Positions 60,628-61,006 of a DNA stretch of 64,000 nt are shown here, one piece after another. The position numbers were made by a program, and so were the translations under genes. The stretch is from assembly GCF_024502345.1 (NCBI RefSeq), contig NZ_JALDNN010000001.1, one strand, 5' to 3'. A model generated the notes under the pieces. It was not told where the DNA came from. It made no database searches and was given only the letters and a program-made list of their open reading frames with translations. The stretch comes from Escherichia coli (lineage in GTDB: Bacteria; Pseudomonadota; Gammaproteobacteria; Enterobacterales; Enterobacteriaceae). Position 1 is the first letter of the stretch. The number at the start of each line of letters is the position of its first letter.

Positions 60628-61006
60628 TTAGGAATCAAGGTCAGGTAGCATGATTTTCTCAATCAACGTCAATGCCCTTTGGTCTCGTTCAGCAAAATAT
60701 TTAGGAGCGTACTGAGGCAGCCACACTTCGTTGAAGTATTGTTTGAAATCTGCAATATTCGTTTGGGTATAGACGTACCGGGAATGTCCGGCCATCTGGG
60801 TACTCATGGTTATATGTTGGGAATGTCTTCGGCTCAACCCCCCGGTTGTCACGGAGCCATTGCGAGAAAACCCTACCCTCTGAAATATCAGGGACCATTT
60901 TTTCTGGCAGCGTATATCCGGCCTGTTCAAGTGGCGCAACCAAGTTAAACGTCAGTTCATTAAGCATAGAAAAGTGCGTATGAGGAACTCTGCCTCGGTT
61001 TGTCAT
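60628..61006 (-). CDS. second gene of the rex-position cassette; either one frameshifted gene (~125 aa) or two overlapping small genes
   Basis: Frame A (61006..60701, MTNRGRVPHTHF…) and frame B (60939..60628, …KYFAERDQRALTLIEKIMLPDLDS) overlap across a C6/G6 homopolymer run at 60838..60843; both look protein-like. Confidence 0.45.

What the first reader, a model, noticed from the sequence alone, without database searches (positions are those of the whole stretch)
60628..61006. Two overlapping protein-like frames across a C6/G6 homopolymer in the rex-position cassette
Frame A (101 aa) and frame B (103 aa) overlap for about 240 bp and both look protein-like through the overlap. A one-base change in the six-residue homopolymer at 60838..60843 would fuse the N-terminus of A to the C-terminus of B as a single ~125-aa protein. 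This could be a sequencing error, a phase-variable or decaying gene, or a genuine overlapping gene pair.
Basis: seen in the sequence. Interest (0 to 1): 0.45.

Follow-up and report, generated by a model that had tools for sequence, protein, structure and literature searches.

The report
Broken BstA phage-defence gene remnant
The two overlapping "protein-like" frames are the out-of-register halves of the tail end of one known prophage defence gene (BstA family). A premature stop codon and a 2-base deletion have killed it, so this is an ordinary pseudogene and not an overlapping gene pair or a homopolymer switch.

Summary
Frames A (60701..61006) and B (60628..60939) overlap by 239 bp on the minus strand, and removing one base from the C6/G6 run would fuse them into a 125-aa ORF.

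Together with the upstream 113-aa ORF (61046..61387), both frames are pieces of a single 253-aa gene that lies directly downstream of a lambda-type cI. That gene has a KilA-N N-terminal domain and a BstA_C C-terminal domain, which places it in the BstA abortive-infection family (Owen et al. 2021).

Intact copies (E. coli D5, ML35, phage PhiR5_2) differ from the window at four places:
- a synonymous G>A
- a GAA>TAA nonsense change at codon 114 (61046..61048)
- a 2-bp deletion at 60755/60756
- a C>T change

The homopolymer is G6 in intact and broken copies alike, so it is not the lesion.

Only frame A up to 60754 and frame B from 60753 down encode native sequence. The rest of each frame is chance open reading.

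The identical broken allele occurs in more than 1000 public contigs and in at least four flanking contexts, so it is not a sequencing error.

Side note: the same nonsense change recurs at the domain boundary on other haplotypes.

The parts
61419..62132 (-). Lambda-type cI repressor, the gene immediately upstream of the cassette. The 31-bp gap to the next ATG contains no predicted terminator, so read-through from the cI promoter is inferred, not shown.
   Evidence: The ORF is. The cI-cro DNA is 96.6% identical to phage Lambda and 97% to HK544/HK244/HK542 immunity regions, and the similarity starts at the cI stop. No terminator was predicted between 61387 and 61419.
61046..61387 (-). bstA remnant, part 1: codons 1-113 (complete KilA-N domain) ending at a premature TAA. 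This is the only piece with a usable ribosome-binding site (AGGA 7 nt upstream of the ATG).
   Evidence: Pfam KilA-N matches residues 13-112 with E 2e-26. PHROG 6287 matches with E 4e-28. PGAP calls this ORF WP_227164514.1. The exact sequence occurs on >=1000 contigs.
61046..61048 (-). Lesion 1: nonsense codon TAA in place of GAA (Glu114; CDS position 340 G>T), at the linker between the two domains.
   Evidence: Alignment with intact D5/ML35 genes.
60754..61006 (-). Native part of frame A: codons 128-211 of the ancestral gene (start of the BstA_C domain). The ATG at 61006 is simply internal Met128 and has no good Shine-Dalgarno sequence.
   Evidence: Frame A residues 1-84 align to PHROG 6287 positions 164-253. 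This stretch is identical to intact-protein residues 128-211.
60838..60843 (-). G6 (C6 on +) homopolymer, CDS positions 545-550. It is unchanged relative to intact genes and is not the lesion.
   Evidence: The run is invariant in window, 1008S19, D5, ML35, PhiR5_2 and in L009-L018. G5 was seen only in strain 81, L019-21 and L022-25.
60755..60756 (-). Lesion 2: junction of a 2-bp deletion (TC or CT of GAATATCTTGCAG, CDS 633-634). This is the true point at which the native reading frame passes from frame A to frame B.
   Evidence: Alignments. All ten L009-L018 loci share it.
60628..60753 (-). Native part of frame B: codons 213-253 of the ancestral gene plus the original TAA stop (60628..60630). 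It carries one substitution, H>Y, at 60738.
   Evidence: Frame B residues 53-102 align to PHROG 6287 positions 245-301. The precomputed Pfam hit PF26567 BstA_C falls on the 55-aa product of this frame.
60701..60753 (-). Out-of-frame tail of frame A (CRFQTILQRSVAASVRS plus stop). It has no homologues.
   Evidence: It lies beyond the PHROG-aligned residues 1-84 and differs from the intact protein.
60754..60939 (-). Out-of-frame head of frame B: about 62 codons that happen to be open in the +1 frame of the native gene.
   Evidence: There is no profile match before residue 52-53. The same frame has stops in the STEC383 homologue. The length of the open run is not unusual.
60602..60619 (-). Rho-independent terminator hairpin (CCCGGCCACAGAGCCGGG followed by TTTTCTTT), 8 nt after the gene's stop. 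It marks the end of the cassette.
   Evidence: Terminator scan. The matching segment in HK542/HK244 is annotated 'immunity region | terminator'.

Best explanation
Window 60628..61387 (minus strand) is a pseudogene of a 253-aa BstA-family abortive-infection gene. It occupies the slot directly downstream of cI that rexAB holds in phage lambda.

The ancestral protein has an N-terminal KilA-N DNA-binding domain and a C-terminal BstA_C domain. By analogy with BstA of Salmonella prophage BTP1, it would be made in lysogens from the repressor transcript and would block replication of superinfecting phage DNA.

Two lesions destroy the gene in this genome. A G>T change turns codon 114 into TAA, so only the 113-aa KilA-N fragment can be translated. 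A 2-bp deletion at 60755/60756 then shifts the last 41 codons into another register.

Frames A and B are what an ORF finder reports for that damaged C-terminal half. Each is native on one side of the deletion and runs on by chance in the wrong register on the other side, which produces the 239-bp overlap.

Shown here: the homology, the two lesions, their presence in many independent assemblies, and the constancy of the G6 run. Inferred: co-transcription with cI, the loss of defence function, and the former mechanism.
For: - **Intact version:** near-identical DNA in E. coli D5, ML35 and phage PhiR5_2 has one 762-bp ORF, annotated as a KilA-N domain protein of 253 aa.
- **Differences from intact:** the window differs from D5 at G9A, G340T (GAA>TAA), a 2-bp deletion at CDS 633-634, and C652T. 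G6 is unchanged.
- **Family:** the intact protein matches PHROG 6287 'BstA abortive infection system, replication inhibitor' over residues 1-252 with E 1.8e-82. The PADLOC BstA model hits residues 120-237 with E 2.5e-20. Pfam KilA-N covers 13-112. PF26567 BstA_C is recorded on the C-terminal products. tblastn to the annotated BTP1 bstA gives 29% identity over residues 133-251.
- **Homologues:** 2748 clusters were found. The 120 listed are nearly all about 250 aa, and all but one carry both domains.
- **Frames:** frames A and B align to consecutive, non-overlapping parts of the profile, 164-253 and 245-301.
- **Frame tests:** codon-position bias in the overlap is 9:4:38, and frame B has stops in a diverged homologue.
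- **Real allele:** the 861-bp segment is identical in 1008S19, whose left flank differs. The remnant is identical in L009-L018, from NCBI genomes and ENA metagenomes with at least four left-flank contexts. The 113-aa product occurs on >=1000 contigs.
- **Architecture:** the position after cI and the gene's own terminator match the published BstA locus layout (PMC8585504).
Against: No expression or phenotype data are available here. Loss of function is inferred from sequence alone.

The 253-aa subfamily is only about 29% identical to the experimentally studied BstA-BTP1 in the C-terminal half, and it has not itself been tested as far as I could find.

The exact conservation and very wide spread of the 113-aa ORF, together with recurrence of the same stop codon on other haplotypes, leave open that the truncated N-terminal fragment retains some activity. 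The locus may therefore not be wholly inert.
Confidence: 0.93

Rival explanations
1. Sequencing or assembly error in the C6/G6 homopolymer: the true genome would have a different run length and a single continuous ORF.
For: Homopolymers are error-prone. A few assemblies (strain 81, which has several genes flagged 'frameshifted', and Logan contigs L019-25) show G5.
Against: Intact genes also have G6, so G6 is the correct in-frame length. The window's frame break is a non-homopolymer 2-bp deletion plus a substitution. Both recur base-for-base in 1008S19 and in 10 of 10 other assemblies from different projects. Changing the run would not restore the native protein.
Confidence: 0.01
2. Phase-variable (contingency) gene: slippage in the G6 run switches expression of a roughly 125-aa protein on and off.
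For: G5 variants exist in both the broken lineage (L019-21, strain 81) and the intact lineage (L022-25), so the run does change length occasionally, either in cells or in sequencers.
Against: The run is only 6 nt. It is G6 in all 10 sampled carriers of this allele and in all full-length intact copies. The 'on' product would start at an internal Met without a Shine-Dalgarno sequence, downstream of a stop codon, and would contain 27 nonsense residues in the middle of the BstA_C domain. In the intact lineage, G5 destroys the gene rather than activating it (P0015, 239 aa).
Confidence: 0.03
3. Genuine overlapping gene pair: both A and B are translated and both are selected through the overlap.
For: Both frames are open for about 100 codons.
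Against: Substitutions in the overlap follow the codon phase of frame A only (9:4:38). Frame B has stops at the equivalent place in STEC383. An open run of this length is reached in 11-18% of shuffles. Neither frame has a full-length homologue of its own: every complete homologue is the roughly 250-aa two-domain protein. Frame B's exact sequence is absent from a collection of about 15 billion proteins.
Confidence: 0.01
4. Truncation selected rather than neutral decay. The stop at codon 114 would be favoured because it removes the costly abortive-infection C-terminal domain while keeping a stand-alone KilA-N protein, or the 5' aba-like DNA element, perhaps acting as an anti-BstA or regulatory factor. 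Frames A and B would still be dead remnants under this view.
For: The same G340T change lies on at least two haplotype backgrounds that differ at the adjacent base: GGT TAA in the window type, GGC TAA in H6 and Klebsiella. The Klebsiella split allele differs from the Klebsiella intact allele at only two sites. An Enterobacter allele has a +1 frameshift 7 nt further on. Only 1 of 109 possible one-step nonsense changes is this one. The 113-aa ORF is found in about 1970 collection blocks, as common as the intact allele. Owen et al. also noted homologues with only the N- or only the C-terminal part (PMC8585504).
Against: Other truncations of many lengths (69, 81, 93, 101, 124, 144, 175, 176, 239 aa) sit in the same 90% cluster, which fits plain recurrent decay. 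H6 and Klebsiella are identical for about 130 bp around the stop, so they may share one origin by recombination. Many carriers are N-deficient, probably cryptic prophages in which hitch-hiking explains the abundance. There is no variation within the allele with which to test selection.
Confidence: 0.15

Closest known systems
BstA abortive-infection system of Salmonella prophage BTP1 and its homologues BstA-Ec and BstA-Kp (Owen et al. 2021, Cell Host Microbe; PMC8585504)
   Same: The two-domain architecture is the same: N-terminal KilA-N(-like) plus C-terminal BstA_C. The gene sits immediately downstream of, and on the same strand as, the prophage repressor, and it has its own Rho-independent terminator. 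The intact allele gives a full-length match to the PHROG family annotated BstA, plus PADLOC BstA and Pfam BstA_C hits.
   Different: This subfamily is shorter (253 vs 307 aa). It is only about 29% identical to BstA-BTP1 over the C-terminal half and has not itself been tested experimentally. No recognisable copy of the BTP1 aba sequence (CCCGCC terminal repeats) is present, which is expected because aba elements are homologue-specific. In the window the gene is inactivated by a nonsense codon and a 2-bp deletion.
Lambda rexA-rexB
   Same: Same genomic slot: immediately downstream of a lambda-type cI, ending at a terminator before the N region. Same presumed logic: a lysogen-expressed exclusion or abortive-infection function.
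   Different: There is no sequence relationship. The profile hits are to BstA and KilA-N, not Rex. It is one gene rather than two. Similarity to lambda DNA stops at the cI stop codon.
Homopolymer-driven contingency loci (phase-variable genes, e.g. in Neisseria/Haemophilus/Campylobacter)
   Same: A G/C homopolymer lies inside a coding region, and occasional one-base length variants are seen in public assemblies.
   Different: The run is short (6 nt). It is at the in-frame length in functional copies and constant in sampled carriers. Its length change cannot restore the native protein.

Membership tests
BstA family (prophage abortive-infection protein) | N-terminal KilA-N(-like) DNA-binding domain | tested here: met
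   Pfam PF04383 matches residues 13-112 with E 2e-26 on the intact allele. The same domain is complete in the window's 113-aa ORF.
BstA family (prophage abortive-infection protein) | C-terminal BstA-specific domain (BstA_C, PF26567) | tested here: met
   PHROG 6287 matches full length with E 1.8e-82. PADLOC BstA hits residues 120-237 with E 2.5e-20. Precomputed PF26567 hits fall on the C-terminal products. tblastn to BTP1 bstA gives 29% identity with E 3e-8. In the window the domain is present only as two out-of-register pieces.
BstA family (prophage abortive-infection protein) | Locus architecture: directly downstream of the prophage repressor on the same strand, with its own Rho-independent terminator | tested here: met
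   cI is at 61419..62132 and the bstA ATG at 61387, with no terminator predicted between them. A terminator lies at 60602..60619. The architecture is described in PMC8585504.
BstA family (prophage abortive-infection protein) | One uninterrupted ORF encoding both domains (functional gene) | tested here: not met
   TAA at codon 114 and a 2-bp deletion at CDS 633-634. The window copy is therefore a pseudogene of the family, not a functional member.
BstA family (prophage abortive-infection protein) | Cognate aba (anti-BstA) DNA element overlapping the 5' end of the gene | not testable with these tools
   aba is defined functionally and is homologue-specific (PMC8585504). The BTP1 63-bp sequence and its CCCGCC repeats are not present around 61354..61416 (sequence). 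No sequence criterion exists for this subfamily.
BstA family (prophage abortive-infection protein) | Abortive infection / inhibition of phage DNA replication | not testable with these tools
   This requires phage-challenge experiments. No paper testing the 253-aa subfamily was found.
Phase-variable contingency locus | Repeat-tract length differs among closely related isolates and toggles an otherwise intact ORF | tested here: not met
   G6 is found in 10 of 10 carriers and in full-length intact copies. The rare G5 variants do not toggle an intact ORF.
Overlapping gene pair | Both frames conserved as open and showing their own selective constraint in relatives | tested here: not met
   Frame B is interrupted in STEC383. 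The codon-phase bias of 9:4:38 follows frame A only. The open-run length is within chance.
Lambda RexAB | Sequence homology to RexA/RexB | tested here: not met
   PHROG and PADLOC searches return BstA/KilA-N families only. DNA similarity to lambda ends at the cI stop.

The most novel reading that the evidence does not exclude
The stop codon at the KilA-N/BstA_C boundary may not be random decay. It could be a recurrently selected truncation that converts an abortive-infection gene into a stand-alone 113-aa KilA-N protein, still made from the cI transcript. That fragment might act as a dominant-negative or decoy that protects the phage from cognate BstA, or as a regulator. The downstream frames A and B would simply rot afterwards. 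This would be a natural route from a prophage defence gene to an anti-defence or immunity factor.
Probability: 0.12. Interest if true: 0.55.

Novelty: already known. Interest (0 to 1): 0.15.

Why it matters
For genome annotation, the three ORFs at 60628..61387 should be merged and labelled as one disrupted bstA-family gene. They should not be called two hypothetical proteins plus a KilA-N protein, and they should not be flagged as an overlapping-gene or phase-variation candidate.

Biologically, this lambda-immunity prophage has lost its lysogen-expressed abortive-infection function. Such loss appears common: many differently truncated alleles exist.

The only point with wider interest is the repeated break exactly between the two domains. 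This could be used to test whether the KilA-N half of BstA has an independent role, and the mechanism of BstA and its aba self-immunity is still unresolved (PMC8585504).

Tried and rejected
- **NCBIfam:** no hit for the intact protein or any fragment.
- **Local Pfam-A library:** only KilA-N was found on the intact protein. The BstA_C family appears only in the precomputed annotations of the contig and protein tools.
- **Programmed +1 frameshift at the deletion site:** reading TAT then skipping T to reach GCA would be needed. I rejected this from the sequence. There is no slippery or prfB-like context, the site lies downstream of a TAA stop, and intact alleles simply have two more bases.
- **Re-initiation at Met128 or Met141 to make a separate C-terminal protein:** neither ATG has a convincing Shine-Dalgarno sequence. 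In the window the C-terminal domain is frameshifted in any case.
- **aba-like terminal direct repeat around the bstA start:** none is evident by eye and no criterion is available, so this was left as untestable.
- **Is the window simply E. coli 1008S19?** No. Its sequence diverges left of 60221. The window matches L013 (GCA_050022275.1) at 99.98%.
- **Literature after 2021 on BstA mechanism:** no mechanistic update turned up.
- **Structure prediction and fold search:** not run, because sequence evidence was decisive.

Full report
**Observation**

On the minus strand the window has an ORF of 101 aa at 60701..61006 (frame A) and one of 103 aa at 60628..60939 (frame B). They overlap by 239 bp. 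A CCCCCC run lies at 60838..60843, which is G6 in gene orientation. So is the arithmetic that losing one base of the run would join the head of A to the tail of B.

**Surroundings**

Immediately upstream on the same strand lies a 113-aa ORF (61046..61387), and upstream of that a 237-aa repressor (61419..62132), with cro and cII diverging to the right. The cI-cro DNA is 96.6% identical to phage Lambda and about 97% identical to the HK544/HK244/HK542 immunity regions. The similarity begins exactly at the cI stop codon. The cassette therefore occupies the rex position of a lambda-immunity prophage. A strong terminator hairpin (CCCGGCCACAGAGCCGGG followed by TTTTCTTT) lies at 60602..60619, 8 nt after the stop of frame B.

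**What the frames are**

A megablast of 60560..61420 against complete E. coli genomes found one 100% match (strain 1008S19). It also found a group at 99.4% identity whose match is two bases longer and is annotated as a single KilA-N domain-containing protein. Phage PhiR5_2 has the same intact gene. The intact gene is 762 bp and encodes 253 aa.

Aligned with it, the window differs at four places:
- G9A, a synonymous change
- G340T, which turns codon 114 from GAA into TAA (window 61046..61048)
- loss of 2 bp (TC or CT of GAATATCTTGCAG) between window 60756 and 60755
- C652T, which changes His to Tyr (window 60738)

The G6 run is identical in broken and intact copies.

So the 113-aa ORF, frame A and frame B are three fragments of one gene. 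Frame A's ATG is internal Met128. Frame A is native down to Tyr211 (window 60754) and then runs 17 codons out of frame. Frame B is native only from Ala213 (window 60753) to the original stop. Its first 62 or so codons are the +1 frame of the native sequence, which happens to be open.

**Independent tests of that reading**

- In a PHROG scan, frame A residues 1-84 align to profile positions 164-253 and frame B residues 53-102 to positions 245-301. These are consecutive parts of one family.
- The +1 frame of the intact gene has a 94-codon stop-free run, but 11-18% of codon shuffles do as well.
- In the 78%-identical gene of strain STEC383 that frame has stops at codons 177, 183 and 211.
- Substitutions between D5 and STEC383 inside the overlap fall 9:4:38 on positions 1:2:3 of frame A. 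Only frame A has been under protein-level constraint.
- Frame B's exact sequence is not among about 15 billion predicted proteins.

The overlapping-gene reading is therefore rejected.

**Not a sequencing error and not phase variation**

Strain 1008S19 shares the 861 bp exactly, yet its sequence diverges from the window left of 60221. The exact 113-aa product is recorded on at least 1000 contigs, in about 1970 collection blocks. Ten of ten loci retrieved through it (L009-L018) come from NCBI genomes and ENA metagenomes with at least four different left-hand neighbourhoods. All ten carry a 760-bp remnant identical to the window's: TAA, G6 and the 2-bp deletion. L013 has the window's own context at 99.98% identity.

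G5 variants do exist:
- Strain 81 and Logan contigs L019-L021 belong to the broken lineage. There G5 produces the predicted fused ORF, called as 125 aa in L019-L021 (112 aa from Met141 in strain 81).
- L022-L025 belong to the intact lineage. There G5 truncates the gene to 239 aa.

Whether these are real slippage events or homopolymer read errors cannot be decided here. Either way, the fused product carries 27 out-of-frame residues in place of native residues 184-212, and it sits downstream of a stop codon without a ribosome-binding site. It is not a restored protein.

**What the gene was**

- The intact protein has a Pfam KilA-N domain at residues 13-112.
- It matches PHROG 6287, 'BstA abortive infection system, replication inhibitor', over its whole length with E 1.8e-82.
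- It hits the PADLOC BstA model at residues 120-237 with E 2.5e-20.
- Its C-terminal half carries the precomputed Pfam family PF26567 BstA_C.
- tblastn links residues 133-251 to the annotated bstA of phage BTP1 at 29% identity.
- A search of 5.8 billion protein clusters returned 2748 homologues. The 120 listed are nearly all about 250 aa, and all but one carry both domains.

Owen et al. (PMC8585504) showed several things about BstA. It is expressed from the prophage downstream of the repressor and localises to replicating phage DNA. It blocks phage DNA replication and causes abortive infection. It is neutralised for the resident prophage by a short DNA element, aba, that overlaps the start of the gene. 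They also stressed that this is the slot held by rexAB in lambda.

The window's locus meets the architectural criteria (position, strand, terminator, both domains) but fails the criterion of an uninterrupted ORF. It is therefore a bstA-family pseudogene. Former function and mechanism are inferred by homology. The 253-aa subfamily itself has not been tested, to my knowledge or in the library searched.

**How it works now**

Most likely the cI transcript still runs through to the terminator at 60602. This is inferred, because no terminator is predicted between cI and the cassette. Only the 113-aa KilA-N fragment, which keeps the native AGGA ribosome-binding site, can be translated. The C-terminal domain is not made, so defence is lost. 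Frames A and B are untranslated relics.

**Noticed along the way**

The same G340T nonsense change lies on other haplotypes. The H6 allele and a Klebsiella allele carry GGC TAA, while the window type carries GGT TAA. The Klebsiella split allele differs from the Klebsiella intact allele at only two sites. An Enterobacter allele has a +1 frameshift 7 nt further on. Because the polymorphic base 339 is adjacent, transfer by recombination between the window type and the others is unlikely, so at least two origins are probable. H6 and Klebsiella may share one origin. Only 1 of 109 possible one-step nonsense changes is this one.

Against reading much into this, the same 90% cluster contains truncations of 69, 81, 93, 101, 124, 144, 175, 176 and 239 aa. 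In addition, many carriers are N-deficient, probably cryptic prophages. I give about 12-15% to the idea that truncation at the domain boundary is selected and leaves a functional KilA-N fragment or a retained aba element.

**Verdict**

The finding is a correctly observed but ordinary feature: a decayed copy of a known prophage defence gene. The homopolymer is incidental. Interest is low, and the kind of feature is already known.

Noticed in passing
window 61046..61048; L006:1959-2300; L026-L028:1501-1842; L032/L033:1501-1875: The identical nonsense change (codon 114 GAA>TAA, exactly at the KilA-N/BstA_C linker) occurs on haplotypes that differ at the adjacent base. The window type has GGT TAA, while E. 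coli H6 and Klebsiella have GGC TAA. In H6 and Klebsiella the downstream 113-aa C-terminal ORF is otherwise intact. An Enterobacter hormaechei allele has a +1 frameshift 7 nt downstream. This suggests recurrent breakage at the domain boundary.
   Followed up: partly
L019-L021 (gene 1501-1878 or 1029-1406), L005:1566-1904, L022-L025: G6>G5 variants of the homopolymer exist in a few public assemblies. In the intact lineage they truncate the gene to 239 aa. Real slippage and sequencing error could not be told apart.
   Followed up: partly
window 58630..60221: Similarity to other carriers of this immunity region stops at 60221. The N antiterminator gene expected here is absent. In its place are a DUF551-like ORF (59939..60232), a 114-aa ORF (59494..59838) and an AlpA/excisionase-like ORF (59158..59358). 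These abut the sucrose permease gene cscB (57382..58629) with no integrase in between. The prophage looks rearranged or cryptic. L013 (GCA_050022275.1) has the same arrangement.
   Followed up: partly
window 61379: The broken allele also carries a synonymous G>A at CDS position 9. This lies inside the stretch (29 bp upstream plus the first 34 bp of coding sequence) that corresponds positionally to the aba self-immunity element of BTP1 bstA. Whether this subfamily has an aba element there is unknown.
   Followed up: no
L009, L011, L014, L016-L019, L021; L001:725-793: Many prophages that carry the dead bstA allele also have a truncated N gene (a 55-aa N_peptide fragment, or a PGAP pseudogene 'missing N-terminus'). 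Others (L010, L015, L020) have full-length N. The dead allele therefore circulates in both apparently cryptic and apparently complete lambdoid prophages.
   Followed up: no
window 60679..60948 (+): An 89-aa ORF is open on the opposite strand across the same region. It lies antisense to a gene under selection in frame A. I took it to be a chance ORF without testing it further.
   Followed up: no
window 14366..17653: A tRNA cluster (Lys-UUU, three Val-UAC, two Ala-GGC) lies far from the finding and is unrelated to it.
   Followed up: no
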